A stretch of 64,000 nucleotides of DNA, from contig CBDCOH010000002.1 in the NCBI GenBank assembly GCA_965219685.1, positions 3,552,001-3,616,000 of the forward strand, written 5' to 3'. Source of the stretch: Candidatus Spongiisociaceae bacterium (GTDB taxonomy: Bacteria; Actinomycetota; Acidimicrobiia; Spongiisociales; Spongiisociaceae). Below the pieces are notes generated by a model. The model was not told where the DNA came from and searched no databases. It saw only the letters and a list, made by a program, of their open reading frames with translations. A program made the position numbers and the translations under genes. Within the stretch, counting starts at the first letter, position 1, and each line of letters opens with the position of its first letter. This document shows positions 27,237 through 42,163 of the stretch, piece after piece.

Positions 27237-27564
27237 GTTCCTCGGCAAAGGGGTGGACAGTGGTCGGTGGTCGGCTCCCCAGGTACGAGCACGGTCGGCG
27301 CCGGGTCGTGACCCGCAGGGCGTACCCCACGCGCTCAGCGGCCATCGTCGGAGGCGCCGCCCGATCGGATAACGGAGAGGGCCGGCTCTCGCAGCCCGAG
27401 TGAAGGAACTCACCCGAACCGGTGTTCCGGCTGATCCGGATAGATCGGGTTAGGACGACCTTTCCACTAGCCTTCACCGGTGGGACCGCCATGATCCGAG
27501 GGACCGGACATCCCGGCGGGGATTGGCTCGAAGAAACCGCAAGAGGCCGGCACATGACAGGCAC

Positions 27565-29661
27565 ATGACAGTTTTCTCGAATCGTACGGGTGCGATCCTG
27601 GCGACGACCATGGTCGCTTCCCTGCTCGTGCTGGCACCCGGACCGCTGAAGGCGGTCGACGGCAGGTCCGACAACGTGGCGGCCTACTCCGCCTGCGTGG
27701 GTCCTGCAACTGTATCGGCGGATTTCGCCGATACAGTTGATCACTTCGCCGAGAAGGCCATCGACTGCCTCGCGTACTACGGGATAACGCTGGGCACCGC
27801 CGCGGGCCAGTTCTCCCCCGACCAGTTCATCACCCGCGCGCAGATGGCCCTATTCCTCGTCCGGGCGGCCGGTCCGGCGGGGGTGAGCCTGCCCACGCCG
27901 GCGAGCCGGGGGTTCTTGGACATCTTGGGCGAGGCGCAATTCGTCCGGGATGCGATCAACCAGATCGCGGCGCTCGGAATCACGGCGGGCACGTCAGCCA
28001 CCACATTCCACCCTGACGTCCACATGGACCGCCGGACGATGGCCCTCTTCCTCTACCGGTTCCTCCTGCTGACCCAGCAGGGACCGGGCGGGACCGGCGC
28101 GGCCCTGGTGACGCCCGACGACACATTGTTCGAAGATTTGGGCAACGAGGACGATGCGGTTGTCAACGCAGTCGGCGTGCTCTACGAGATGGGCGTGACC
28201 CACGGCAAGACGGCTACGACCTTCGCTCCTTCCGACCTGGTGACTCGGGCGCAGATGGCGCTGTTCATGACCCGGGCCCTGGCGCACTCCAACACCCGGC
28301 CGGCCCGCGTGACCATCCAGAGCCGGGCCGACGTCGTTCCCAGCGGGGACACACTCGAGGTGAGTATCTCCGTCAGGGACACCAGGTTCCGCCCGAGGTC
28401 AGGGTCGCTGGTCGACGTGTTCTCCACCCCTTCCCGAGACCCGTACGCCTCGTTCGGTCAGGACGGGGACTGCCTCCGAAGGGTGGAGGTGGCCTTCGGA
28501 AGCCGAGTCTGCGTGATCGATCAATCGGACCGGCGCCTGGACCAGATGGGCAACCTGGTAGTCGTCCTCGAACCCACCGACAACCTGCTGCTATGGGCAT
28601 GGACGGGTTCTTCGGGCGAGGAGTTCCGCACCAACGCCACCGAGTACGGTTCCATCCGGATCGAGGTGCTCAAGCCTGCCACGGCGGTGAGGGTCCGTGA
28701 CGACATGAAACCTGCGGCCGCCATCCTGAAGTTGGGCGAAACCGTGGAGATGACGTTCGAACTGGTCGACGAAGACGGTCGCCCGGTCGCCGAGTCCGGG
28801 GTACGGATCCAGCTGGCCACGACCTACGAGACGAACGGCGTGATCGGCCGGACCAACATCAGGACGCACCGGACCGACGGGGATGGGCGGGTGGTGGTTC
28901 CGCTCTCGGCGGCGGACCCCGACCTCACATCCGGTGGCGACTCGGTGAAGGTCGACATCGATGTGCTGGTGCAGGCGCTCGAGGTGGTGGATCGGAGCAG
29001 CCTGCGGGTGGTGGAGAACGATGACGACGACAGCACCGACACCCTGATCACCTGGTCCGAGGCGGCCCCGGTGGCCTGGACCCTCCGGTTGCGCCAAGCC
29101 TCCACGTACAACCAGCTGGACGATTCCATCCTCGGTCCGGTGAACGTGGTCCGGGCGACGCTCAGGGACCAGTACGGCGATCCGGTGGAGGCCGCCATGA
29201 TCCAGTTCTCCTCGGATCAGCCCTTGGGCCTTGGTACGACCGGTGTGACCAGGACCGCAGGGGTCGACGGGGTGGCCACCCTGCGGTATATGTGGAACGG
29301 TTCCGGGTCGGCGTCCGAACTCATCTCCGCCGAGGCCACAGGCTTGGACGTCGAGGCTGTGTCCGTTCACCACTACTGGGCGGTTCTCCAGGCGGGAGGC
29401 AGGTCCGCCCTGGCGGTCCCCATCCTGGCGAGCGACATCTACAGGAACGTCATCCTCCACGACGCCAGGTCGCCGCGGCTGCTCCGTTACGACGCCAACG
29501 ACCGTTTCTCGATCCGGGACACCGTCGTCAGCATGACCGCCTTCGAGGAGGCCCTTACCAGCGGCGACTACAGCCGGATCACCTACACCAAGTACTTCGA
29601 CGAGCCCGAAGATGTCAGCTTCTTCGACCTCACCAACACCAGGATTTTCGACGACGCCTAG
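27565..29661 (+). CDS. SLH-domain surface protein, paralog 6
   Basis: YSACVG, HSNTRPAR, DQYGDPV, HYW. Confidence 0.9.
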   Translation: MTVFSNRTGAILATTMVASLLVLAPGPLKAVDGRSDNVAAYSACVGPATVSADFADTVDHFAEKAIDCLAYYGITLGTAAGQFSPDQFITRAQMALFLVRAAGPAGVSLPTPASRGFLDILGEAQFVRDAINQIAALGITAGTSATTFHPDVHMDRRTMALFLYRFLLLTQQGPGGTGAALVTPDDTLFEDLGNEDDAVVNAVGVLYEMGVTHGKTATTFAPSDLVTRAQMALFMTRALAHSNTRPARVTIQSRADVVPSGDTLEVSISVRDTRFRPRSGSLVDVFSTPSRDPYASFGQDGDCLRRVEVAFGSRVCVIDQSDRRLDQMGNLVVVLEPTDNLLLWAWTGSSGEEFRTNATEYGSIRIEVLKPATAVRVRDDMKPAAAILKLGETVEMTFELVDEDGRPVAESGVRIQLATTYETNGVIGRTNIRTHRTDGDGRVVVPLSAADPDLTSGGDSVKVDIDVLVQALEVVDRSSLRVVENDDDDSTDTLITWSEAAPVAWTLRLRQASTYNQLDDSILGPVNVVRATLRDQYGDPVEAAMIQFSSDQPLGLGTTGVTRTAGVDGVATLRYMWNGSGSASELISAEATGLDVEAVSVHHYWAVLQAGGRSALAVPILASDIYRNVILHDARSPRLLRYDANDRFSIRDTVVSMTAFEEALTSGDYSRITYTKYFDEPEDVSFFDLTNTRIFDDA

Positions 29662-32245: not shown

Positions 32246-32585
32246 GAACGTTCCCCCTTACCTGTGATCGCTTATAGGGTAACTATACCACCCGACCGTT
32301 AGATACCGTCAACAAGGTTGGACATCTAACTGGTTCAAGTTTTTCGACTCCAACGAAAAGTGGAAATACCAGGCGCTTTGCGTGGGGCGGATCAATACGG
32401 ATGGGACGAGGATGATCGCCGTGTCCGGACCGGCGGCGATGTTTGTGCTCGCGGCACCCTTGACTATGCACGATGGGTGTGACAGCGGCAACCCCTACTC
32501 GCACTCGAACGGGACTAACCGGTGGGCACACAGGATCCGCCGCTCGAGACCCCGCCTAGGTGCCGGCGGGGCTGCCAGTGGGTCC

Positions 32586-33701
32586 CTACTCCAGCCTGTC
32601 GACCAATCTCTGGAACTTGCCGGCGGAGAAGGACACGGGAGTGTCCTCCACCCGGTTGCCGGTCTTGTCGATCAGCAGGGCCCGGGATGTGTACGGGCCG
32701 CCGTAATGTCTCCACACCGCGTTGGAGCCGTCCCAGAGGTTGGTGAAGGTCAGCCCGTAACGTCGAACGAAGCCCTCGCCGGAACTCCGGGGATTCCAAT
32801 GATCCGGGTTGATACCCACCACTGTGACCTTGTCTGTGTTCTTGCGAGCGAACTGCTCGACCTCCGGAGCATGCCTCCGGCAAGTCGGTCACCATTCCGC
32901 CCAGAACCAGAACAGCACCCCCTTGTCGCCCGTGAACAGCGAGCGGAGGTTGACGGTCTCGCCGCTGGAGAGGTCGGTCAGGTCGACATCGGGGACGTCG
33001 TCGGAGATGGTGACCGGTTCGGGCTCGGTCGTCTGGTCGTCCTGTTTGAGCAGCGCCCGGTGCAGGAAGGTGGCCATCTCGGCTCGGGTGACCGAATCGT
33101 GGGGGCAGTAGCGGAGCGGGCCGGTCGCGCATCCGGTGGTGATCCCGGCTGTGGCCAGGGCGTCGATGTTCGGCGCGTGGGTGTTGCCTGCGGTGTCCGT
33201 GAAGCCGGCCGGGCCGGCGGGTTCGAGAGCGAAGGCACGGGTGAGGAAGGTGGCCATCTCGGCTCGGGTGACGGCCTGGTCGGGGCAGTAGCGGAGCGGG
33301 CCGGTGGCGCATCCTTTGGTGATCTCACGGTCGGCGAGTTCCTCCGCGTAGCGCGACCACCACTCTGAGGCGTCCACGTCGTCGAAGCGGGAGGTCCCTC
33401 CGGCGGTGACGTCGCCGCCGAGGACCCGGATCAGCCATACGGCCATGACCCATCGCTCGATCTTCTCCTGCGGGCAGAATTCGCCTTCCCCGCACTCGGT
33501 GCCCTCGAACACGCCCGACTCGGCCAGGGCATTGATCGCCGGCTCGTGGAAGTCGCCCGCACCGACATCGGAGAACCCGTCCGCGCCCCCGGCCGGCGGG
33601 GAGGCCAGAAGCGACGCCAGCAGTACCACGACCAGCGCCAACGGGGCGGCCCGACGGCGCCCGGGCGATGCTGTGTGCTCACGGGTTGTCACGGCTGCCA
33701 C
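32586..33701 (-). CDS. Predicted selenoprotein: signal peptide + 3 SLH + TlpA/thioredoxin-like domain (U-P-T-C)
   Basis: In-frame TGA at 32889-32891 in WFWAEW-U-PTCRRHAPEVEQF; frame stays open to stop at 32586 and completes the redoxin fold. Confidence 0.85.
32845..32859 (-). promoter_or_regulatory. Candidate SECIS hairpin 1
   Basis: CGAGC-AGUUC-GCUCG at +30 to +44 from UGA. Confidence 0.6.
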
Positions 33702-33868
33702 CCCCCTGTCGGGTCGGGCCTCATGATAGTTCTCCGGATGGGTCCGGTGTCGGATACCACCCGGCGCCCGTGGACGGGATGCCGGCCAGCCGTGTCGACG
33801 AGGCCGGAGGATTCAGGACCGGGTCCGGGGCGATCCCCCACGTGCGCAGTCGGTCGTCACGAACCGGA

Positions 33869-34978
33869 CTACTCCAACGCCGCCAGCAACCTGTCGATCA
33901 GGTCCGGGTCGAAGTACGAGTATTGAGGCGAGGGCACCGGGTTGCCCTCCCGGTCGACGAAGCGGAACCTCACCCGGTCGCCCTGCTTGCGCAGCAGCCG
34001 GAACTCGGACCAGGACCCGATCCCGTAGTGCGCTGTCGTTGCCCAGGGCTGATCGTCGCGAAGGATCGGAAAGGTCAAGCCGTGGGTGGCCACGAAGTTC
34101 GTGATCGCGTTAGGAGAATCCTCGGAGTTGATCCCTATGACCTTGACCCTATGGGTGTTGTCACGAGCGAACTGCTCGACCGCGGCCGCTTCCCGCCGGC
34201 ATCTCGGTCAGCCAGGCGAGAAGAACCAGAGCAGGAGGGGCTTGTCGCCGGTGACGAACGAGCGGAGGCTCACGGTGTCTCCCGTGGAGACGTCGGTCAG
34301 GTCTGTGTCGGGGACATCGTCGGAGATGGCGACCGGTTCGGGTCCGGTCATCCGGTCGTTCTGTTTGAGCAGGGCCTGGTGGAGAAAGGTGGCCATCTGG
34401 GCTCGGGTGACCGCCTCGTTAGGGCAGTAGCGGAGGGGGTCGGTCGCGCATTCGCGGGTGATCCCGGCTGCGGCTAGGGCGTCGATGTCCGGCGCGTGGT
34501 GGTCGCCTTCGGTGTCCGTGAAGCCAGCCGGGCTGGCGGCTTCGAGGGCGAAGGCCCGGGTGAGGAAGCTGCCCATCTGGGCTCGGGTGACGTCCTGGTC
34601 GGGGCAGTAGCGGAGGGGGCCGGTGTCGCATCCTTTGGTGATCTCGCGGTCGGCGAGTTCCTCCGCGTGGCGCGACCACCATTCGGAGGCGTCCACGTCG
34701 GCGAAGCGGGAGGTCCCTCCGGCGGTGACGTCGCCGCCGAGGACTCGGATCAGCCATACGGCCATGACCCATCGCTCGATCGGGTCCTGGGGGCAGAATT
34801 CGCCTTCCCCGCACTCGGTGCCCTCGAACACGCCCGACTCGGCCAGGGCGTTAATCGCCGGTTCATGGATGCCGCCCGCACCGACGTCGGAGAACCCGTC
34901 CGCGGCCCCGGCGGGGAGCGGACCCAGCACCGAGGCCACCAACACCACGGCTACCAGGACGGTCGGCCAACCCGTCAT
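33869..34978 (-). CDS. Predicted selenoprotein: signal peptide + 3 SLH + TlpA/thioredoxin-like domain (U-P-R-C)
   Basis: In-frame TGA at 34208-34210 in WFFSPG-U-PRCRREAAAVEQF; frame open to 33869. Confidence 0.85.
34164..34178 (-). promoter_or_regulatory. Candidate SECIS hairpin 2
   Basis: Identical 15-mer at +30 to +44 from UGA. Confidence 0.6.
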
Positions 34979-35055
34979 GCGGCGGAGGCGTCAACCTATT
35001 GGGGCGGCGAATACCGGACCAGGTCCGATAGACCTGGTCGGCAGTGGACGCGGCG

Positions 35056-36090
35056 TCATACCAACTCGTCCAATAGGTTCTCGACGCGGGTCCGGTCGTA
35101 GGGTTCGGTCCTCTCCATCAGCCGGTTGCCGAACGGATCCAGGAGCAGGAAGTCGGACGTGGCGTCCATCTCGTAGTGTTCCCATGCCTCACGGGAGTCG
35201 CTCCAGAGCACAGTGAAGGTGGTGCCCTTGTCAGCTACGAACTCCTGGGCTATCTCCAGGGTTCCTATGCCGCCGACGCCTATGACGATGAGGCGGTGGG
35301 AGTTGTCCCGAGCGAACTGCTCGATGGCCGGAGCCTCTTCGTTGCACGTCTCTCAGAACGGCGACCAGAACCAGAACATGAGCGGCTTCTCGCCCTTGAC
35401 CACCGACCGCAGGCTCACCAACTCGCCGGTAGCCGTGTCGAACATCCGGACGTCGGGCACGTCGTCGGAGATCTCGATCGTGAGCGGCGCCTCGGTGGTG
35501 GTCGGCGTGGGTGCCTGGGTGGTGGTAGGCGCCTGGGTGGTGGTGGTCGGTGGCTCGGTGGTGGTGGTCGGCGCTTGGGTGGTCGTGGTGGGCGCGTCGG
35601 TCGTGCTGGTCGTCGGCGCCTGGGTGGTGGATGTCGCCGGTGGTTCCTCGACGGTCGTGGAAGTCACGCCGGTCCCGGCCGTGTCGACGGTGGTGGAGGT
35701 GACTGCGGCGACCGTCGTGGCTGCGGCGGCCGTGGTGGTGGTGCTGTCCGGGACGGCCGATGTCGTCGTGGCGGCCCGGGCCGCGGTGGTGCTGGTTTCC
35801 GGCGCCGTCCCGTCCTCGGAGGGGTCGCGGTCAGCCACGCTGGTCCCGGGGTCGGGCATGGTGGTCCCGGTCGTGGTGGAGGCGCCGGCATCCACGGCGT
35901 CGGCTGCCACCGTGGTGGTGGTTCCGCTCCCGCAGGCGGCGACCATCAGGGCCGCTGCCACCACCCCGGCGTACCAGCCGGGCAACGGACGGGTCGGCCG
36001 TCGCTCCCGTGGCCGACGAGACCGCCTCGGACCCGCGCCCCGGTCCGGATCGACCGTGGCGCTCCCGCCTTCGTCGGCGTGCTGGCCCAT
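35056..36090 (-). CDS. Predicted seleno-lipoprotein: lipobox + Thr-rich stalk + TlpA/thioredoxin-like domain (U-E-T-C)
   Basis: VAAC lipobox; in-frame TGA at 35353-35355 in WFWSPF-U-ETCNEEAPAIEQF; frame open to 35056. Start uncertain. Confidence 0.85.
35309..35323 (-). promoter_or_regulatory. Candidate SECIS hairpin 3
   Basis: Identical 15-mer at +30 to +44 from UGA. Confidence 0.6.
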
Positions 36091-36340
36091 GGAACAACGG
36101 CTCGGGCTGCGACGAACCGCGCGGGTGTCGCCTGTCACCCACCTTCTCGCTGTCACCGGCTAAGCATAGAGGCTGGTGAGAGTTGCCGATCGGGCAGTGC
36201 AGGGCCACCCGAGGGCCGCAGACGCCGGCTGCGCCGCCGCCGCCGAGGCTCGACCGCCCGCGGAGGGGTCGCGCAAGGGCAACCCGGCCGGATGGCGGTC
36301 GTATCCTCCCGCTACGATCCGGTTGGCCGATCAGGTACCG

Positions 36341-38869
36341 GTGTTGAGAGAAATCCTCAGAAGGGAGGGCGGCGCCCTCCGAGCCTCGTGGCTTGTCCTC
36401 GCGGGCGTCTCCGCAGCGCTGCTGCTGCTTGCCACGCCCGCGCGGGCGGAGTCGCCCTGCGGCTCCCCGACGGTGATTCCCGACGGCTCGGAAGCTCTGC
36501 GGTCCGACTGCGAGGTGCTGTGGGAGTTCTACACCGGTCTCGAAGACCCGGGCGTACTGGACGATGCCGACAACCCCAACGCCTGGCTACCTACCATCCC
36601 GTTCGTCGAGTGGCAGGGACTCGAGGTCCGGAACGACCGGGTCGTAATCCTCTCCCTGTCCGGAGCCGAGTTGAAGGGACCCGTCTCCCCCGGCCTCGGT
36701 GGCCTGGCCGGCCTGCGGGCCCTCTACCTGAACTCCAACCAACTGACCGGTCCGATCCCCCCCGAACTGGGTGACCTCTCGGAGCTCGTCCTGCTGCAAC
36801 TGGACGACAACGGGTTCACGGGACCGATACCCCCGGAGATAGGGCAACTGGCGGAGCTGGTCTACCTTCTCCTGAACAGCAATGACCTCACGGGACCGAT
36901 CCCGCCACAGTTAGGCGACCCCACCAAGCTGAAGTGGCTGTACCTGTTCGGCAACGAGCTGAGCGGGCCGATACCCGAGGAGCTGTCGCGCCTGGACGAC
37001 CTCGAGAAACTCGCCCTGGGCGACAACCAGCTCACCGGGTCCATCCCGCCGGAGCTGGGGAGGCTCGTGAACCTGACCCTGCTGGCGCTCAACGACAACC
37101 AACTCAGCGGGTCCATCCCGCCGGAACTGGAGTCCCTGACCAAGCTGGAACAGCTGTATCTCCGCGGCAACCGGCTGACCGGTCCCATCCCTCCCGGCCT
37201 CGATCAGGTGCTCGAGCCCGCCGACAAGGACGAGATCGATCCCTTCTGGGCGGATCCGCTGGGTCTCATCGCCCACGCGGCCTACTACCGCCAGTACAGC
37301 CTCGGCTCGACTGTCTGGCACGTGTGGTTCTGCGATGTGCCGCTGGGCGACGCGCCCGTCGTGGCGAACGAGGTGGTGAGGCGCCTGAACCGGGAGGTGG
37401 TCTCCTACTTCGAGTGGGTGTCGGGCGACCGGTACCGGCCGAGCTTCCAAGCGGAGGGTTGGCTGGCCGGTGACAGCCGGTCGGACTGTGAGGCCGCGCT
37501 GGAGGCCGAGGACCCCGAGATGCCCATGCTCCTGGTCGAGAACAGCCCCGCCAACGACGGCTACGCGGCGGGCCGGGGACTGGTGGTGCTAGGAGGCGGC
37601 ACGGTCGTCCCGACACCGGGGTTCCGCCAGGCGCGCCTGTCGACCGTGGTCCACGAGATGGGCCATGCGTTGGGCTTCCCGCACTCCTTCGGCGGCAGGA
37701 TCAGATGGTCGCCCGAGGGCCAGCTCAGCGGGGTCTACGAGTACGACAACCCGATGGACATGATGAGCGGCGACCTCGCCCTGGGGCTCGACACCGGGAC
37801 GATCGCCGCCAACCGGTACGCGGCGGGCTGGATCGAACCGGACGAGGTGGCGGTCCACGGGGCGGGAACGACAGCCGTCTACGAGCTCCGCCCGCCTGGT
37901 GCGGGCGGCACCCAGATGCTGGTCCTGCCGGGGAGGAGGCAGGGCGTGTTCACGGTGCTGGGAGCCAGGGTCGCCCTGGGTCATGATGTGGCCATCCCGC
38001 GAGCGGGGGTCGAGGCCTACCGCATCGACCAGAGGGAAGCGGCGTGCACCTACCCCTGGCGGGGCGCTTGCTCGGGAACCGAGCGGCGTACCCAGCCCTA
38101 CCCGCCCGCCGAGCCGGGAGCAGGTTACGGCGACGATCTGGGCAGCCGCGGCCGGCGCCGCCTGGTCGATCACGTGTACCGCCCGGGCGACGTGTTCGAG
38201 ATCGGCACGACCACGATCGAGGTGGTCGAGAAGGTCGGCAACAACTACCGGGTGCGGGTGGCGGACTCCTCTGCGCCGCCGCCCCCGCCGGAGCCCGCCC
38301 CCGGTCCGTCGTTCGACGGGCGCTTCTCCGACGACGACGGCAGCGTCCACGAAGCCGACATCGAAACGATCGCCGCGCTGGGCATCACCGTCGGCTGCAA
38401 CCCGCCCGACAACAACCGTTACTGCCCCGGCGACGTCGTGACCCGGGCGCAGATGATGGCCTTCCTGGCCCGCGCCCTCGGCGAGGAGGGCGACCCCGAG
38501 GTGACTACCGGCCGGTTCTCCGACGTGCCCGACAACGCCTGGTACCTGCCGTACCTGGAGCGGCTGGCCGACCTCGGGGTGGTCGAACCCTACGAGGACG
38601 GCACCTTCCGCCCTGACGAGCCCATCACCCGGATCGACATGGCCGTGCTCCTAATGCGAGCATTCCCGGGCATCGACGAGGTGACCGAACCCGAGGGAGT
38701 CTTCGTCGATGTGCCCGCAGACGCTCCGCACGCGGGGGCGGTCGAGGGCATCCTGGCGGCGGGGGTCACCAAAGGATGCTCCGAGGACCCACTCTCCTAC
38801 TGTCCCGGCGGGGCCGTGCCCCGCGACCAGATGGCGTCCTTCCTGGCGCGAGCCCTGAAAGCCGGCTAG
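36341..38869 (+). CDS. Secreted plant-type LRR + zinc metalloprotease + 3 SLH protein (start uncertain)
   Basis: LxxLxLxxNQLTGxIPPELG repeats; HEMGHALGFPH; C-terminal SLH repeats. Confidence 0.88.
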   Translation: MLREILRREGGALRASWLVLAGVSAALLLLATPARAESPCGSPTVIPDGSEALRSDCEVLWEFYTGLEDPGVLDDADNPNAWLPTIPFVEWQGLEVRNDRVVILSLSGAELKGPVSPGLGGLAGLRALYLNSNQLTGPIPPELGDLSELVLLQLDDNGFTGPIPPEIGQLAELVYLLLNSNDLTGPIPPQLGDPTKLKWLYLFGNELSGPIPEELSRLDDLEKLALGDNQLTGSIPPELGRLVNLTLLALNDNQLSGSIPPELESLTKLEQLYLRGNRLTGPIPPGLDQVLEPADKDEIDPFWADPLGLIAHAAYYRQYSLGSTVWHVWFCDVPLGDAPVVANEVVRRLNREVVSYFEWVSGDRYRPSFQAEGWLAGDSRSDCEAALEAEDPEMPMLLVENSPANDGYAAGRGLVVLGGGTVVPTPGFRQARLSTVVHEMGHALGFPHSFGGRIRWSPEGQLSGVYEYDNPMDMMSGDLALGLDTGTIAANRYAAGWIEPDEVAVHGAGTTAVYELRPPGAGGTQMLVLPGRRQGVFTVLGARVALGHDVAIPRAGVEAYRIDQREAACTYPWRGACSGTERRTQPYPPAEPGAGYGDDLGSRGRRRLVDHVYRPGDVFEIGTTTIEVVEKVGNNYRVRVADSSAPPPPPEPAPGPSFDGRFSDDDGSVHEADIETIAALGITVGCNPPDNNRYCPGDVVTRAQMMAFLARALGEEGDPEVTTGRFSDVPDNAWYLPYLERLADLGVVEPYEDGTFRPDEPITRIDMAVLLMRAFPGIDEVTEPEGVFVDVPADAPHAGAVEGILAAGVTKGCSEDPLSYCPGGAVPRDQMASFLARALKAG

Positions 38870-39063: not shown

Positions 39064-40620
39064 TCAGCAGAAGGGGAGGTCCATCAAGCTGAAGTCGTTG
39101 CTGGTGTCCATCAGTCCCTGCGGTATGCATCCCTGAAACTGGTTCCCGCCGTAGAACCGCACGTAGTTGATCTCGGGAAGGTCACCCAGGGAGGCGGGGA
39201 TGCGACCCTGCAACCTGTTGTTGGCCACATCCAGGAGGCGAAGTTTGGTGAGATTCCCCAGCTCGTCGGGAATCTCACCCGTGAGTCGGTTTTCGTTTAG
39301 CCACAGGTTGGCGAGGCGCGACAGTCTTCCAAGCTCCGGGGGGATGGGGCCTGTCAGTTGGTTCCTGGAAAGGATCAGCACCTCGAATTCCTCCAGGTCG
39401 CCCAACTCCGAAGGTATGGGACCGCTCAATCGGTTCCCCCCAAGGGACATCCACCAGAGCGACTTCACCGTCCCGAGTTCGGCCGGGATGGCCCCTGTCA
39501 GCACGTTGTCGCGCAGGGACAGGACACCCAGGTTGGCGAACTCGCCGAATTCAGGTGGGATGCCTCCACTCAGCGCGTTGCCTCCCAGGGACAGCTGTTC
39601 CAGGCGGGTGAGTCCGGTCAACTCAACCGGGATGGGTCCGTCGAGCAGGTTGTCGGCGAGGATGAGGGTCCTGAGTTGCTGGAGAGAGCCCAATTCGGAG
39701 GGCACCGACCCGGTGAGCCCATTCTCGCTCAGGTCAAGGGTCTCGAGCGCGGAGAGATCGGCCAGGATCGGCGGGAAGGGTCCCTCCAGCCCGTTGCCCT
39801 TCAGTTCCAGCTTCTTGACACGGTCGTCATCGTCGGTGGTGACACCGCCCCAAGCTTCCAGTTGGCCCCCTGTCAACCAGTTCTTCCTGCTGGTCCAGTT
39901 GTTGCCACTCGTCGTGTTGTAGAGGACCGCGAGGATGGCCCGGTCCGAGGTGCGGATGGCTCGGTGCAGGAACGTCGCCATCTCGGCGCGGGCCACGGGT
40001 CTGTCCGGGCAGTACTTCAGAGGGTCGGTGCTGCAGCCCGCGGTGATCCCGGCCGCGGCCAGCGCGTCGATGGCGGCTTCGTGGGTGTCGCCTCCGGTGT
40101 CGACGAACCCGGCGGAGGGCGCTTCTTCTATCTTCAGGGTGCGCACTAGGAACGTCGCCATCTCTCCCCTCGTCACCGCCCGATCGGGGCAGTAGCTCGG
40201 AGGGTCCGTCTTGCATCCGATCGTGATCTCGAGCCGGGCGATGCGCTCGGCGTAGGGTGACCACCACTCATCGGCGGAGACATCGGCGAATCGGGAGGTG
40301 TCGGTGTTGTAAGGCTTGTAGCCGAACGCCCGCACCAGCCAGACCGCCATCACCCAGCGGTCGACCGGATCCCAGGGGCAGAACATGTCCGTGTCGCACT
40401 CGGTGTCCTCGAAGTAGCCCCACTCGGCGAGGGTGTCGACCGCGGCCTGGAGTCCACCCGCCTCGGCCGAATCCGTGAAGAAGCCTTCCTCCTCGGTCGC
40501 CGCCGCGTCCGGGGCGAGCACCGTGCCGACCAGCGCCGCGACCAGGAGGAGGATCGTGCCGACGAGGAGGCGGTGCGGGACTGATGAAGACTGCCGGAGA
40601 TCGGTCTGCGGGATGCTCAT
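39064..40620 (-). CDS. Secreted 3 SLH + plant-type LRR protein
   Basis: Signal peptide, SLH (GC...YCP...TRGEMATFL), LYNTTSGNNW...WGGVT cap, 24-aa LRRs. Confidence 0.88.
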   Translation of the reverse strand: MSIPQTDLRQSSSVPHRLLVGTILLLVAALVGTVLAPDAAATEEEGFFTDSAEAGGLQAAVDTLAEWGYFEDTECDTDMFCPWDPVDRWVMAVWLVRAFGYKPYNTDTSRFADVSADEWWSPYAERIARLEITIGCKTDPPSYCPDRAVTRGEMATFLVRTLKIEEAPSAGFVDTGGDTHEAAIDALAAAGITAGCSTDPLKYCPDRPVARAEMATFLHRAIRTSDRAILAVLYNTTSGNNWTSRKNWLTGGQLEAWGGVTTDDDDRVKKLELKGNGLEGPFPPILADLSALETLDLSENGLTGSVPSELGSLQQLRTLILADNLLDGPIPVELTGLTRLEQLSLGGNALSGGIPPEFGEFANLGVLSLRDNVLTGAIPAELGTVKSLWWMSLGGNRLSGPIPSELGDLEEFEVLILSRNQLTGPIPPELGRLSRLANLWLNENRLTGEIPDELGNLTKLRLLDVANNRLQGRIPASLGDLPEINYVRFYGGNQFQGCIPQGLMDTSNDFSLMDLPFC

Positions 40621-40759
40621 GGAAGGCCTCAACTGTGGTGCTCGGGTGCTTCCGGACGCTACCACTTGTCTCCAGGATCGGGCATTCCCGCAATGGTGGG
40701 GATGGCTTGCTCGGGACGCCGACGTACGTTCGGACCCGGACGGGTATAGGGTTCCCATC

Positions 40760-42163
40760 ATGCGACCGGTACTCACCTCCGAGCAGTCCCGCCGCCAGGA
40801 CGCTCTCGCCGATGTGGACCCGCGGACGCTGCTGGACCGGGCCGGGCTGGCGGTGGCCCTGCAGGCGGCTGCACTCGGGGCCGGCTACGGATGCCGGGTG
40901 GCGGTGCTCGCCGGTCCCGGTAACAACGGCGGGGACGGATACGTGGCCGCCCGTCACCTCTACGGGCGGGGAGCGGCCGTCGACATCTATCCGCTGACCG
41001 CGCCGAGGAGCGGTCCGGCACGATGGGCACACCGGCTGGCCTCTAGGGAAGGAGTGGCCGTCCGGGACTGGGACGACCCTCGACCGGCGGATCTGGTGAT
41101 CGACGCCCTGTTCGGGGCTGGGTTCCGGGGAACGTTGCCCGACCTCTCCCCGTGGCGGGAGGCCCCGGCATGCATGGCCGTGGACGTCCCGTCGGGACTG
41201 GACGCCTCTACCGGCGAGGCCGTGGACGGCGCCCTGGTAGCCGACGCGACCGTGACCTTCCACGGGTACCGGGTGGGCCACCTCGTGGGTCAGGGTCCGG
41301 ACCTCTGCGGGGAGGTGGTGGTGGCGGACATCTGGCTGCCCGACGTGGAGCCCGAGATGTGGCTGTGCGAGGAGGCGGACGCCCCCCTCCCGGCGCGGAG
41401 CCGCACCGGCCACAAGTGGTCGGCCGGGTCGGTCCTGGTGATCGGCGGCTCCGACGGCCTGGACGGGGCGGCCACCCTCACCGCCCGGGCGGCGCTGCGG
41501 GCCGGGGCGGGGGCGGTGATGATCGCCTGCCCGCCCACCGTCGAGGAGAAGGTGCGGGCGCCCGAGATCATGACCAGGGCGATCGGCGAGAGCCGCTCGT
41601 TCTCGGCCGCCGACCTTCCCCAGGTGCTGGCCCTGGCGGACCGTTTCGACCTGGTGATCATCGGGCCCGGCCTCGGATCGGCCGCCGACCTGGGAGGCTT
41701 CGTCAGCGGGTTCTTGGAGGGCTGCGGCGGTCCGGTGGTGGCCGACGCCGACGCCCTCAACGCCTTGGACGGGCCTCGGGACCTGGTCAGGGAAGGGGAG
41801 ACCGTGATCACCCCCCACACCGGAGAGTTCTCCCGCCTGACCGGCCGGGCCGCCTCCTACCAGGAAGCCGCCTCGCTCTCGGCCTCCACGGGGGTGACCG
41901 TCCTGCTGAAGGGCGCTCCCACCTTCGTCATGGGAGCGGCGCGCTGGGTGGTGAACTCCGGAGGTCCCGAACTCTCGACCATCGGGACCGGGGACGTGCT
42001 GGCGGGGATGATCGGCGCCTTCTGGGCCTCGGGGCTGGACGGTCCGGCGGCGGCCCGGTCAGGGGCGTACTGGCACGGCCGGGCCGGGGCCGACCTGCAA
42101 CAGACCCGCACGGTCACCGCGGACGTGCTCGCCGATCACATCGCCGAGACCACTCGCCGGTGA
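40760..42163 (+). CDS. nnr: Bifunctional NAD(P)H-hydrate epimerase/dehydratase
   Basis: GPGNNGGDG, DALFGAG, AVDVPSG, GPGLG, DADAL, TPHTGEF, GTGDVLAG. Confidence 0.95.
   Translation: MRPVLTSEQSRRQDALADVDPRTLLDRAGLAVALQAAALGAGYGCRVAVLAGPGNNGGDGYVAARHLYGRGAAVDIYPLTAPRSGPARWAHRLASREGVAVRDWDDPRPADLVIDALFGAGFRGTLPDLSPWREAPACMAVDVPSGLDASTGEAVDGALVADATVTFHGYRVGHLVGQGPDLCGEVVVADIWLPDVEPEMWLCEEADAPLPARSRTGHKWSAGSVLVIGGSDGLDGAATLTARAALRAGAGAVMIACPPTVEEKVRAPEIMTRAIGESRSFSAADLPQVLALADRFDLVIIGPGLGSAADLGGFVSGFLEGCGGPVVADADALNALDGPRDLVREGETVITPHTGEFSRLTGRAASYQEAASLSASTGVTVLLKGAPTFVMGAARWVVNSGGPELSTIGTGDVLAGMIGAFWASGLDGPAAARSGAYWHGRAGADLQQTRTVTADVLADHIAETTRR

What the first reader, a model, noticed from the sequence alone, without database searches (positions are those of the whole stretch)
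32845..35323. Identical 15-nt hairpin at +30 after each UGA: candidate lineage-specific SECIS
Seen: CGAGC-AGUUC-GCUCG occurs at 32845-32859, 34164-34178 and 35309-35323, always starting 30 nt after the UGA, while the intervening codons differ. It uses GCU for Ala, against the usual GC3 preference here, and that U is needed for pairing. Known: bacterial SECIS elements lie just 3' of UGA and carry a G, often followed by U, near the start of the apical loop. Genes 1 and 2 can also form a UGA-proximal stem (gene 1: CGACUU-G-CCGGAG-GCAUG-CUCCGG-AGGUCG), so the true SECIS could be either stem.
Basis: partly seen in the sequence, partly recalled or inferred. Interest (0 to 1): 0.82.

Follow-up and report, generated by a model that had tools for sequence, protein, structure and literature searches.

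The report
Selenocysteine insertion hairpin in redoxin genes
Three neighbouring genes for cell-surface thiol-redox enzymes each read a UGA stop codon as selenocysteine, and the identical small RNA hairpin 30 bases further on is very probably the ordinary bacterial signal that tells the ribosome to do so.

Summary
CGAGC-AGUUC-GCUCG lies on the minus strand at 32845-32859, 34164-34178 and 35309-35323, each time 30 nt after an in-frame UGA. The UGA sits in the UxxC active site of a TlpA/ResA-like redoxin gene. A fourth exact copy elsewhere in the genome follows a fourth UGA in a paralogue.

The genome (Acidimicrobiia; named relatives are Ca. Spongiisociaceae MAGs) has selA, selB, selD and tRNA-Sec, and at least eight further selenoprotein genes.

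In 44 distinct homologues the hairpin is kept at the nucleotide level. The rare Ala codon GCU is used in 44 of 44, and GAG in 44 of 44. Neighbouring synonymous sites vary freely. One outer pair changed C-G to U-A.

All 49 Sec forms seen as DNA carry the hairpin. Of 19 Cys rows from wider collections, none has the hairpin or the EQFAR peptide. One recent Sec-to-Cys derivative still has it.

The hairpin meets the published bacterial SECIS model: 5-nt loop, G then U at loop positions 2-3, and 34 nt spacing against an allowed 16-37. An AGUUG loop also occurs behind UGA in two other selenoprotein families here. SelD has its hairpin at 33 nt.

Verdict: a genuine, conventional bacterial SECIS of one redoxin family, not a new or lineage-specific type. 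The UGA-proximal stem is variable and fails the model.

The parts
32583..33701 (-). Gene 1: SLH-domain + redoxin selenoprotein. 371 aa when read through; Sec at residue 271 in W-U-PTC. The stop codon is included.
   Evidence: Pfam SLH 56.6 bits, Redoxin 58 bits, AhpC-TSA 55.9 bits. The domain spans the TGA.
32889..32891 (-). In-frame UGA (Sec codon) of gene 1.
32845..32859 (-). Gene 1 SECIS hairpin CGAGC-AGUUC-GCUCG. It encodes (V)EQFAR, and the loop lies 34 nt after UGA.
32859..32886 (-). Gene 1 UGA-proximal stem-loop in the spacer (CGACUU-G-CCGGAG-GCAUG-CUCCGG-AGGUCG). It is variable across the family, and its 3' end overlaps the first base of the SECIS hairpin.
   Evidence: spacer -16.2 kcal/mol against -7.7 for synonymous-randomised versions (p 0.005). 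Not conserved in register.
33866..34978 (-). Gene 2: SLH-domain + redoxin selenoprotein. 369 aa; Sec at residue 257 in G-U-PRC.
34208..34210 (-). In-frame UGA (Sec codon) of gene 2.
34164..34178 (-). Gene 2 SECIS hairpin, the identical 15-mer.
35056..36156 (-). Gene 3: redoxin selenoprotein with a Thr/Pro-rich linker and a lipoprotein-like N-terminus. Sec at residue 268 in F-U-ETC. It ends at a second TGA. The true start codon is uncertain.
35353..35355 (-). In-frame UGA (Sec codon) of gene 3.
35308..35324 (-). Gene 3 SECIS hairpin: the same 15-mer (35309-35323) plus a sixth U-G pair.
   Evidence: -7.1 kcal/mol, 6 bp.

Best explanation
The 15-nt hairpin is the SelB-binding apical stem-loop of a conventional bacterial SECIS. 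It serves one family of secreted or cell-wall-anchored TlpA/ResA-like redoxins whose active site is UxxC.

Proposed mechanism: when the ribosome reaches the UGA, SelB carrying GTP and Sec-tRNA(Sec) is held on the mRNA by this minihelix. The minihelix has 5-6 bp and a loop N-G-U-U-N. Its loop starts 34 nt after the UGA, and selenocysteine is inserted instead of termination.

The hairpin lies inside the coding sequence, so it fixes both the peptide (V/I/F)-E-(Q/R)-F-A-R and its codons, including the rare GCU.

Shown here: the Sec machinery is present, the hairpin is under nucleotide-level purifying selection, it is coupled to Sec forms, it fits the published model, and other selenoprotein genes of the genome share the loop motif.

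Inferred, not shown: that SelB binds this hairpin and that UGA is actually read as Sec.
For: 1. Machinery. SelB scores 322.7 bits. SelA scores 435.7 bits and lies next to it. SelD scores 366.9 bits and itself has one in-frame TGA. tRNA-Sec scores 77 bits.

2. All 4 exact copies of the 15-mer in the 4.4-Mb genome lie 30 nt behind an in-frame TGA of a redoxin paralogue.

3. Codon use in 44 distinct homologues. These were chosen by protein similarity, not by the hairpin.
- Ala codon 14 is GCT in 44 of 44. The genome uses GCT for 9.6% of Ala.
- Glu codon 11 is GAG in 44 of 44.
- Codon 10 is NTC in 43 of 44.
- The loop G is present in 44 of 44.
- Equally conserved residues nearby vary at synonymous sites: Ala7 GCC 18, GCG 12, GCT 6; Val23 GTC 19, GTG 14, GTA 6, GTT 4; Gly25 18/11/7/5.
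- Mean pairwise identity at third codon positions is 0.93 in the hairpin, 0.50 in the spacer and 0.46 downstream.

4. Base pairing. All five pairs form in 43 of 43 sequences. The single exception to the sequence is a double change, C-G to U-A, in L063.

5. A sixth pair, U38 with N54, forms in 35 of 43 (UA 22, UG 13). This fits the Arg codon skew at the wobble position: 22 CGA and 13 CGG out of 43 CGN codons (44 sequences), against 11.6% and 41% in the genome.

6. Loop variation. Loop positions 1 and 5 vary (A or G; C, U or A), even at the cost of Q to R or F to L. The central G-U-U never varies.

7. Sec against Cys. Every Sec form seen as DNA carries the hairpin: 43 of 43, 5 of 5 and 1 of 1. 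Cys rows lack both hairpin and EQFAR: 0 of 11 and 0 of 8. One of the 11 is an unrelated thioredoxin. In the same place, Cys proteins P0008, P0010, P0011, P0015, P0019 and P0022 read AKFAE, EELAR, EQLSQ, QRFAQ, EAFSE and EAFAG.

8. Fit to the bSECIS model quoted in PMC13188914 (passages read). The model asks for a loop of 3-9 nt, a stem of 4-16 bp, a G in the first two loop positions followed by G or U, and 16-37 nt spacing. In all four genes of this genome, this hairpin is the best perfect hairpin that meets those rules.

9. Other selenoprotein genes of the same genome.
- The second redoxin family (AEW-U-PxCRRELPV) keeps CGGG-AGUU(G/A)-CCCG in 23 of 23 orthologues. Its Leu codon is UUG in 21 and UUA in 2, never CUN. 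The genome uses UUG for 9.5% and UUA for 0.6% of Leu.
- A GRDB-like gene has an AGUUG loop at 17 nt.
- SelD keeps GCGCAG-GUN-CUGCGC at 33 nt in 20 of 20 Sec forms shown, and in 0 of 3 Cys forms.
Against: 1. No experiment. SelB binding and Sec insertion are inferred.

2. The minimal hairpin is weak. It gives -6.1 kcal/mol in genes 1 and 2, -7.1 in gene 3 and -8.0 in the fourth paralogue. The model asks for -7.5 or lower. The other selenoprotein genes of this genome with a strong hairpin give -9.4 to -14.

3. Its spacing (34 nt) is near the upper limit of the model. It is about twice the 16-20 nt seen in six other selenoprotein genes here.

4. Almost no covariation, because the stem is invariant. 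There is one double change in 43 sequences.

5. Sec and Cys forms are phylogenetically clustered. The tree needs only 3 changes of state. It gives 2 independent contrasts on well-supported branches; in one the hairpin changes with Sec and in the other (L046) it does not. The Sec/hairpin association therefore cannot be tested statistically.

6. One Cys form (L046) keeps the hairpin. One Cys protein (P0012) has LEQFAR, and its DNA could not be found.

7. No Rfam family matches here. This is expected, since bacterial SECIS elements are poorly represented in Rfam.
Confidence: 0.85

Rival explanations
1. The UGA-proximal stem-loop in the 30-nt spacer is the real SelB-binding SECIS. On this view the +30 hairpin is an accessory or unrelated element.
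For: Gene 1 has a strong proximal hairpin. The spacer folds better than synonymous-codon-randomised versions in 42 of 43 sequences (mean z -1.39; 10 of 43 at p<=0.05). It lies close to where the E. coli upper stem-loop sits, 11 nt from UGA (review passage).
Against: RNAalifold does not recover it. In a fixed register only 70% of cells pair. Its sequence, register and loop differ between subfamilies. Gene 3 and its orthologue L017 have only a 3-bp stem, and gene 2 is no better than random. In gene 1 the loop starts 14 nt after UGA, below the model's 16. In the F-U-ETC subfamily the loop AAGAAGC has no G in its first two positions. Part of the pairing follows from the conserved Arg (CGG) and Pro (CCG) codons.
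Confidence: 0.05
2. There is no RNA function. The 15-mer is identical because the peptide EQFAR is needed by the protein, or because gene conversion homogenises the paralogues.
For: The hairpin encodes part of helix 1 after the CxxC motif of a thioredoxin fold. The genes are paralogues and three of them are in tandem. One Cys form keeps the 15-mer.
Against: The rare GCT is used in 44 of 44, GAG in 44 of 44 and NTC in 43 of 44, while flanking synonymous sites are near saturation. Conservation holds across genera and across paralogue groups that are only about 46-63% identical over 180 nt. A conversion tract of exactly 15 nt in every lineage is implausible. Cys homologues do not conserve the peptide. 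The only stem change is compensatory and alters the protein, R to Q.
Confidence: 0.03
3. The palindrome is another kind of element, for example a DNA-binding site, an RNase or sRNA target, or a translational pause site unrelated to SelB.
For: CGAGC-N5-GCUCG is a perfect inverted repeat. In principle it could be read as DNA.
Against: It always lies in frame at a fixed distance from a Sec codon, about 800 nt inside the coding region. The asymmetric loop G-U-U is invariant on the mRNA strand. The relaxed motif GAGCNGTTNGCTC occurs 9 times in the genome, 4 of them in these genes; none of the other 5 lies behind a TGA at the equivalent place, as chance matches would look. The same loop motif recurs behind UGA in unrelated selenoprotein genes.
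Confidence: 0.03

Closest known systems
Consensus bacterial SECIS model (bSECISearch model of Zhang and Gladyshev, as quoted in the review PMC13188914)
   Same: It lies in the coding region just 3' of the Sec UGA. It has a small apical loop (5 nt), an upper stem of 5-6 bp, a G at loop position 2 followed by U, and 34 nt between UGA and loop, within the allowed 16-37.
   Different: It is at the far end of the spacing range. The minimal hairpin alone (-6.1 to -8.0 kcal/mol) sits around the -7.5 threshold. [quoted passage not shown]
E. coli fdhF SECIS
   Same: A SelB-type hairpin with an essential G-U in the apical loop, G23 and U24 (review passage). Here G-U-U is the invariant part of the loop.
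   Different: In E. coli the 17-nt upper stem-loop lies 11 nt from UGA and has a bulged U17. Here the stem begins 29-30 nt from UGA, has no bulge, and is preceded by a variable spacer that often forms its own hairpin.
SECIS of the second redoxin selenoprotein family (AEW-U-PxCRRELPV) and of SelD in the same lineage
   Same: Family 2 has a pentaloop AGUU(G/A) that is likewise fixed by a rare codon (UUG or UUA Leu). SelD has its hairpin at 33 nt spacing, and it is lost in the Cys forms.
   Different: The family 2 loop starts 16 nt after UGA, exactly 18 nt (six codons) closer, on a 7-bp G+C-rich stem (-11.6 kcal/mol). The SelD loop is a triloop, GUN.
TlpA/ResA/DsbE-type thiol-disulfide oxidoreductases, and the NCBIfam ResA-like WAxxUGC selenoprotein family
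   Same: Same thioredoxin-like Redoxin/AhpC-TSA fold, with the redox motif at the N-terminus of helix 1.
   Different: No NCBIfam model is reached above its cut-off. The best is ResA at 48 bits against 170; WAxxUGC_long scores 21 against 300. The motif here is UxxC. Genes 1 and 2 carry N-terminal SLH cell-wall anchors.

Membership tests
Bacterial SECIS (bSECIS consensus model) | Located in the coding region directly downstream of an in-frame UGA that aligns with Cys in homologues | tested here: met
   (the domain spans the TGA). (Cys forms align at the U position).
Bacterial SECIS (bSECIS consensus model) | Apical loop of 3-9 nt on an upper stem of 4-16 bp | tested here: met
   5-nt loop and 5 bp in 43 of 43 sequences; a sixth pair in 35 of 43.
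Bacterial SECIS (bSECIS consensus model) | G in one of the first two loop positions, usually followed by G or U | tested here: met
   The loop is N-G-U-U-N. G-U-U is present in 44 of 44. Model text.
Bacterial SECIS (bSECIS consensus model) | 16-37 nt between UGA and the apical loop | tested here: met
   34 nt in all four genes of this genome and in all 44 homologues, whose alignment has no gaps.
Bacterial SECIS (bSECIS consensus model) | Minimum free energy of -7.5 kcal/mol or lower | tested here: inconclusive
   The minimal hairpin alone gives -6.1 (genes 1, 2), -7.1 (gene 3) and -8.0 (fourth paralogue). The RNAalifold consensus gives -8.26. The 75-nt region gives -22 to -31. It is unclear which stretch the threshold is meant for.
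Bacterial SECIS (bSECIS consensus model) | The organism has selA, selB, selC and selD | tested here: met
   All are above the curated cut-offs.
Bacterial SECIS (bSECIS consensus model) | Binds SelB and directs Sec insertion at the UGA | not testable with these tools
   Needs a binding assay, a readthrough reporter, 75Se labelling or mass spectrometry.
Thioredoxin-fold redoxin (Pfam Redoxin PF08534 / AhpC-TSA PF00578), TlpA/ResA-like | Pfam domain above the gathering score, with the CxxC-type motif (here UxxC) at the expected place | tested here: met
   Redoxin 58, 46.5 and 37.1 bits (cut-off 26.6); AhpC-TSA 55.9, 51.8 and 36.2 bits (cut-off 26).
ResA / DsbE / TlpA equivalogs (NCBIfam) | Score above the curated cut-off of the model | tested here: not met
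   the best is ResA subfamily NF002854 at 48 bits against a cut-off of 170. No model is reached, so the genes belong to the fold but to no named orthologous group.
Rfam SECIS families | Match to a covariance model | tested here: not met
   no SECIS family matches, even at E<=10.

The most novel reading that the evidence does not exclude
SelB of this lineage may work at two discrete registers. Perfect hairpins that meet the model have loops 16-20 nt after UGA in six selenoprotein genes of the genome, and 33-34 nt after UGA in five (the four redoxins and SelD). GrdA has only a weak candidate, at 24 nt.

The redoxin hairpin sits exactly 18 nt (six codons) further out than the AGUU-loop hairpin of the sister redoxin family. 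The extra stretch usually folds into its own variable hairpin of about 17-19 nt.

The boldest reading not excluded is a bipartite SECIS. A sequence-free spacer hairpin loops out the extra six codons, so that the invariant SelB-binding minihelix ends up at the canonical distance of about 11 nt from the UGA. This would let the protein place the RNA signal on a tolerant stretch of helix 1.
Probability: 0.2. Interest if true: 0.55.

Novelty: new member of a known kind. Interest (0 to 1): 0.35.

Why it matters
The three window genes, and dozens of homologues in relatives, are cut in two by standard gene callers. In the 5.8-billion-protein collection the family appears only as fragments. Recognising the SECIS lets them be annotated as full-length, surface-anchored selenoenzymes.

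It is also a clean natural example of an RNA signal dictating a peptide. EQFAR and its codons are frozen in Sec forms, and the same positions are free in Cys forms.

The invariant 15-17-mer plus the UxxC context is a simple, specific search key for this selenoprotein family in metagenomes.

The genome carries at least 12 selenoprotein genes, which marks this group as a heavy user of selenium.

None of this changes what is known about how bacterial SECIS elements work.

Tried and rejected
1. One search used a pattern with the wrong spacer length (18 N instead of 21). It found only chance matches (6 of 401 genomes, 0 in the window's own genome). It cost 401 genomes of the budget and says nothing. 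One search used the corrected pattern.

2. My first de-novo scan for selenoprotein genes by coding potential recovered 1 of the 4 known redoxin genes at strict thresholds. At looser ones it recovered 2 of 4, among 208 candidates. It is therefore not a complete selenoproteome. Only candidates that Pfam confirmed are counted.

3. A search of the 5.8-billion-protein collection with the redoxin domain gave only 6 fragments and no full-length Cys form. Those came from the HMMER search of representatives.

4. The DNA of the one Cys protein with LEQFAR (P0012) was sought in genome contigs and metagenome contigs. It was not found; the best matches were 58% and 47% identical.

5. I tried to test the Sec/hairpin association by independent contrasts on a tree. 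Only 2 contrasts lie on supported branches, so no test is possible. The first tree had lost 24 rows to an over-narrow regular expression, and one search replaced it.

6. Rfam gave nothing relevant at gathering thresholds or at E<=10.

7. A look-up of earlier findings of this scan returned nothing.

8. Liu et al. 1998 (PMC147357) is not held. Its content is cited only through the review passage.

9. A fixed-register count of the proximal stem understates it, because the register shifts between subfamilies. The per-sequence fold test was used instead.
Full report
**What is there.** The window is G000:C2:3552001-3616000, in a genome of 4.4 Mb and 65% G+C. The named relatives that carry the same genes are Acidimicrobiia MAGs. 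Two of them are labelled Candidatus Spongiisocius or Spongiisociaceae.

On the minus strand lie three tandem genes. Each standard ORF ends at a TGA, but the reading frame stays open and coding beyond it.

Read through, each gene gives a protein of about 365-371 aa with a C-terminal Redoxin/AhpC-TSA domain that spans the TGA. The TGA occupies the first position of the redox motif: W-U-PTC, G-U-PRC and F-U-ETC.

Genes 1 and 2 carry N-terminal SLH cell-wall-binding domains. Gene 3 has a Thr/Pro-rich linker. No NCBIfam model is reached above its cut-off; the nearest names are ResA, DsbE and TlpA.

**The observation.** The 15-mer CGAGCAGTTCGCTCG occurs exactly three times in the window, at the stated coordinates on the minus strand. 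At up to 2 mismatches 0.37 matches are expected, and 0 of 100 shuffles reached three.

In each gene the first hairpin base is the 30th after the A of UGA. The whole genome holds four exact copies. The fourth also lies 30 nt after an in-frame TGA of a redoxin paralogue.

Between the three window genes the 29-nt spacer is 13-20 of 29 identical, the 37 nt after the hairpin are 18-25 of 37 identical, and the hairpin is 15 of 15 identical.

**The Sec machinery and other selenoproteins.** All four components are found above the curated cut-offs:
- selB, 322.7 bits.
- selA, 435.7 bits, adjacent to selB.
- selD, 366.9 bits, itself with one in-frame TGA.
- tRNA-Sec, 77 bits.

Pfam confirms seven further genes in which a domain spans an in-frame TGA: an AhpC-like SW-U-GC protein, a second redoxin (W-U-PAC), a UGSC-family protein, two CMD/AhpD-like proteins, GrdA and a GRDB-like protein. 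With SelD and the four redoxins this makes at least 12. My scan was not exhaustive.

**Is the conservation more than protein constraint?** A protein search of 41 related genomes reads through stop codons and is blind to the hairpin. It found dozens of homologues with one TGA.

From these and the window I extracted every frame that had [U/C]xxC preceded by the family's LRS-type motif. Thioredoxins, the second redoxin family and spurious frames were dropped at this step. This left 44 distinct sequences, 43 with TGA and 1 with TGC. Their mean pairwise identity over 180 nt is 63%, with a minimum of 46%.

In all of them the block reads NTC GAG CRG TTY GCT CGN:

| Codon | Observed | Genome usage |
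|---|---|---|
| Ala 14 | GCT 44 of 44 | GCT 9.6% of Ala |
| Glu 11 | GAG 44 of 44 | GAG 75% of Glu |
| Codon 10 | NTC 43 of 44 | not applicable |
| Codon 12 | third base G 44 of 44 | CAG 82% of Gln |

Equally conserved residues nearby use their synonymous codons freely:
- Ala7: GCC 18, GCG 12, GCT 6.
- Pro8: CCG 30, CCC 13.
- Val23: GTC 19, GTG 14, GTA 6, GTT 4.
- Gly25: 18, 11, 7, 5.

Mean pairwise identity at third codon positions is 0.93 inside the hairpin, 0.50 before it and 0.46 after it.

The one sequence that departs in the stem (L063) has GTT...CAA. That turns the outer C-G pair into U-A, at the price of an R to Q change.

RNAalifold on the gap-free 43-sequence alignment predicts exactly one structure, this hairpin. 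It extends it by a sixth pair, U38-N54, which forms in 35 of 43 (UA 22, UG 13, UU 5, UC 3). That accounts for the skew of the Arg codon: 22 CGA and 13 CGG out of 43 CGN codons, against 11.6% and 41% genome-wide.

Loop positions 1 and 5 vary, with coding consequences: A or G gives Q or R, and C, U or A gives F or L. The central G-U-U is invariant.

A pattern search of all 29 genomes of the family found 52 matches. Of these, 48 are TGA redoxin genes, all with GCT. They occur in 7 of 7 other genomes of genus g1 (the window's own genome also matches) and in 12 of 12 genomes of genus g7. This pattern required the EQFAR-type peptide, so it cannot show members that lack it.

**Sec forms against Cys forms.** The HMMER search of 1.84 billion representatives found full-length Cys forms. 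At the hairpin position they read AKFAE, EELAR, EQLSQ, QRFAQ, EAFSE and EAFAG. One, P0012, reads LEQFAR.

I searched genome and metagenome collections with P0012.
- Six more Sec forms from other Acidimicrobiales MAGs all have NTC GAG CAG TTY GCT CGN: 5 of 5 and 1 of 1.
- Of the Cys rows, none has the peptide or the hairpin: 0 of 11 and 0 of 8. One of the 11 is an unrelated thioredoxin. Their Ala codons at that place, where there is an Ala, are GCC, GCG or GCA.
- The DNA of P0012 itself was not found.

The single Cys form with the hairpin (L046) differs from its nearest Sec relative at only 18 of 141 same-residue codons. About half of such sequences would still keep five unconstrained codons unchanged.

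A caveat applies. On a tree of 64 domains, with the trait columns masked, the Sec/Cys label needs only three changes. Only two independent contrasts lie on well-supported branches, and the hairpin goes with Sec in one and is unchanged in the other, L046. The association is therefore descriptive. The strength of the case lies in long-term purifying selection on synonymous sites within the deeply branched Sec forms.

**Comparison with the known model.** The 2026 review PMC13188914 (passages read) gives the consensus bacterial SECIS: a loop of 3-9 nt, a stem of 4-16 bp, a G in the first two loop positions mostly followed by G or U, 16-37 nt from UGA to the loop, and an MFE of -7.5 kcal/mol or lower.

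The hairpin has a 5-nt loop, 5-6 bp, G-U at loop positions 2-3, and 34 nt spacing. Its energy alone is -6.1 to -8.0 kcal/mol, so it is borderline on that point.

I enumerated all perfect hairpins that obey the model in 12 selenoprotein genes of the genome:

| Gene | Spacing (nt) | Loop | Energy (kcal/mol) |
|---|---|---|---|
| Redoxin family 1 (four genes) | 34 | AGUUC | -6.1 to -8.0 |
| Redoxin family 2 | 16 | AGUUG | -11.6 |
| CMD a | 18 | GGUCU | -14.0 |
| UGSC | 19 | GUG | -10.9 |
| CMD b | 20 | GGC | -9.4 |
| AhpC-like | 20 | GGACU | -10.0 |
| GRDB-like | 17 or 20 | AGUUG or UGG | -3.9 or -4.1 (weak) |
| GrdA | 24 | GAGGAU | -3.6 (weak) |
| SelD | 33 | GUC | -11.3 |

For all four family-1 redoxin genes the +30 hairpin is the best hairpin that obeys the model.

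Two of these comparators were checked across relatives.
- Family 2 keeps CGG GAG TTR CCC in 23 of 23 orthologues. Leu is UUG in 21 and UUA in 2, never CUN. The genome uses UUG for 9.5% and UUA for 0.6% of Leu. The codon signature and the loop motif are the same as in the finding.
- SelD keeps GCGCAG-GUN-CUGCGC in the 20 Sec forms shown and in none of the 3 Cys forms. One locus from an unpublished genome was left out, and one locus was not matched by my expression.

So the AGUU-type loop is shared by unrelated selenoprotein genes of this lineage, and a spacing of 33-34 nt is not peculiar to the redoxins.

In E. coli fdhF the 17-nt upper stem-loop lies 11 nt from UGA, and U17, G23 and U24 are the critical bases (review PMC8659212, passages read).

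**The proximal stem.** Gene 1 has a strong stem. Over the family, the 30-nt spacer folds more stably than versions with randomised synonymous codons in 42 of 43 sequences. The mean z is only -1.39, and 10 of 43 reach p<=0.05. The sequences are related, so these are not independent trials.

The register and loop differ between subfamilies. In a fixed register only 70% of cells pair. Gene 2 is no better than random, and gene 3 has a 3-bp stem. Part of the pairing comes for free from the conserved Arg CGG and Pro CCG codons. The stem does not meet the model's rules.

I read it as at most an auxiliary, spacer-compacting structure. That idea is kept as the novel case.

**Mechanism proposed.** The steps shown are the presence of the machinery, the RNA-level selection, the link to Sec forms and the fit to the model.

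The steps inferred are these. SelB, with GTP and Sec-tRNA(Sec), binds the N-G-U-U-N minihelix through its C-terminal domains while the ribosome has the UGA in its A site, and Sec is inserted. The full-length proteins are exported, and those of genes 1 and 2 are held on the cell wall by their SLH domains. There they act as selenol-based thiol-disulfide oxidoreductases.

**Novelty.** Two literature searches were made. 'Bacterial SECIS + apical loop + SelB' gave 8 papers. 'Selenoprotein + Acidimicrobiia + SECIS' gave 1.

The one paper, a bioRxiv preprint on Actinomarina (passages read), reports Sec machinery and predicted selenoproteins in another order of the class. It describes no SECIS. Of PMC1794560 I saw only the search listing.

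I found no description of this family's SECIS in these searches, but supplementary tables were closed. The element is a new, well-supported member of a known kind.

Noticed in passing
G000:C2:638565 (+), locus L081; orthologues L041, L044, L087-L106: A second redoxin selenoprotein family (AEW-U-PxCRRELPV) occurs across the order. It keeps an invariant hairpin CGGG-AGUU(G/A)-CCCG whose loop starts 16 nt after UGA. The Leu codon is UUG or UUA in 23 of 23 and never CUN.
   Followed up: yes
G000:C2:2564589-2565512 (-), locus L159; relatives L135-L158: SelD is itself a selenoprotein here. It has a conserved 7-bp hairpin with a GUN triloop 33 nt after UGA. The hairpin is present in the 20 Sec forms shown and absent in the 3 Cys forms.
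   Followed up: yes
G000:C2:1715895 (-), 2667460 (-), 2289075 (+), 4055349 (+), 4242156 (+), 2675030 (+): Further selenoprotein genes confirmed by Pfam domains that span the TGA: GrdA, a GRDB-like protein (V-U-PVC), a UGSC-family protein, two CMD/AhpD-like proteins (CxxU) and an AhpC-like SW-U-GC protein. GrdA and GRDB suggest a glycine/betaine-type reductase in this Acidimicrobiia genome.
   Followed up: partly
G000:C2:813800 (+), locus L134: In-frame TGA in 'LLQRYSP-U-GISFVGQ', near the start of a predicted multi-pass membrane protein. A hairpin GGGCC-AGUUC-GGCCC follows 19 nt downstream. There is no Pfam match. It may be an undescribed selenoprotein, or two adjacent genes in one frame.
   Followed up: partly
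G000:C2:237240-237638 (-), locus L086: The fourth redoxin paralogue with the identical 15-mer lies in an open frame of 1019 aa when read through its TGA, much longer than the window's genes. Its N-terminal part was not analysed.
   Followed up: no
window 27523-29661 (+), 36176-38869 (+), 39064-40776 (-): The three selenoprotein genes sit among genes for surface proteins: an SLH + Ig-like protein, a leucine-rich-repeat + SLH protein and a further leucine-rich-repeat protein. This looks like a cell-envelope locus.
   Followed up: partly
window 35056-35058 (-): Gene 3 terminates at a TGA. The same codon therefore serves as the Sec codon at 35353-35355 and as the stop 99 codons later. No hairpin of the conserved type follows the second one.
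   Followed up: no
L046 = G006:C1:1770331-1771356: This is the only Cys form inside the sponge-associated clade (Y-C-PTC). It is a TGA to TGC change and still carries the intact hairpin, so it is a recent Sec-to-Cys replacement. Its orthologues in G001, G002 and G024 have TGA.
   Followed up: yes
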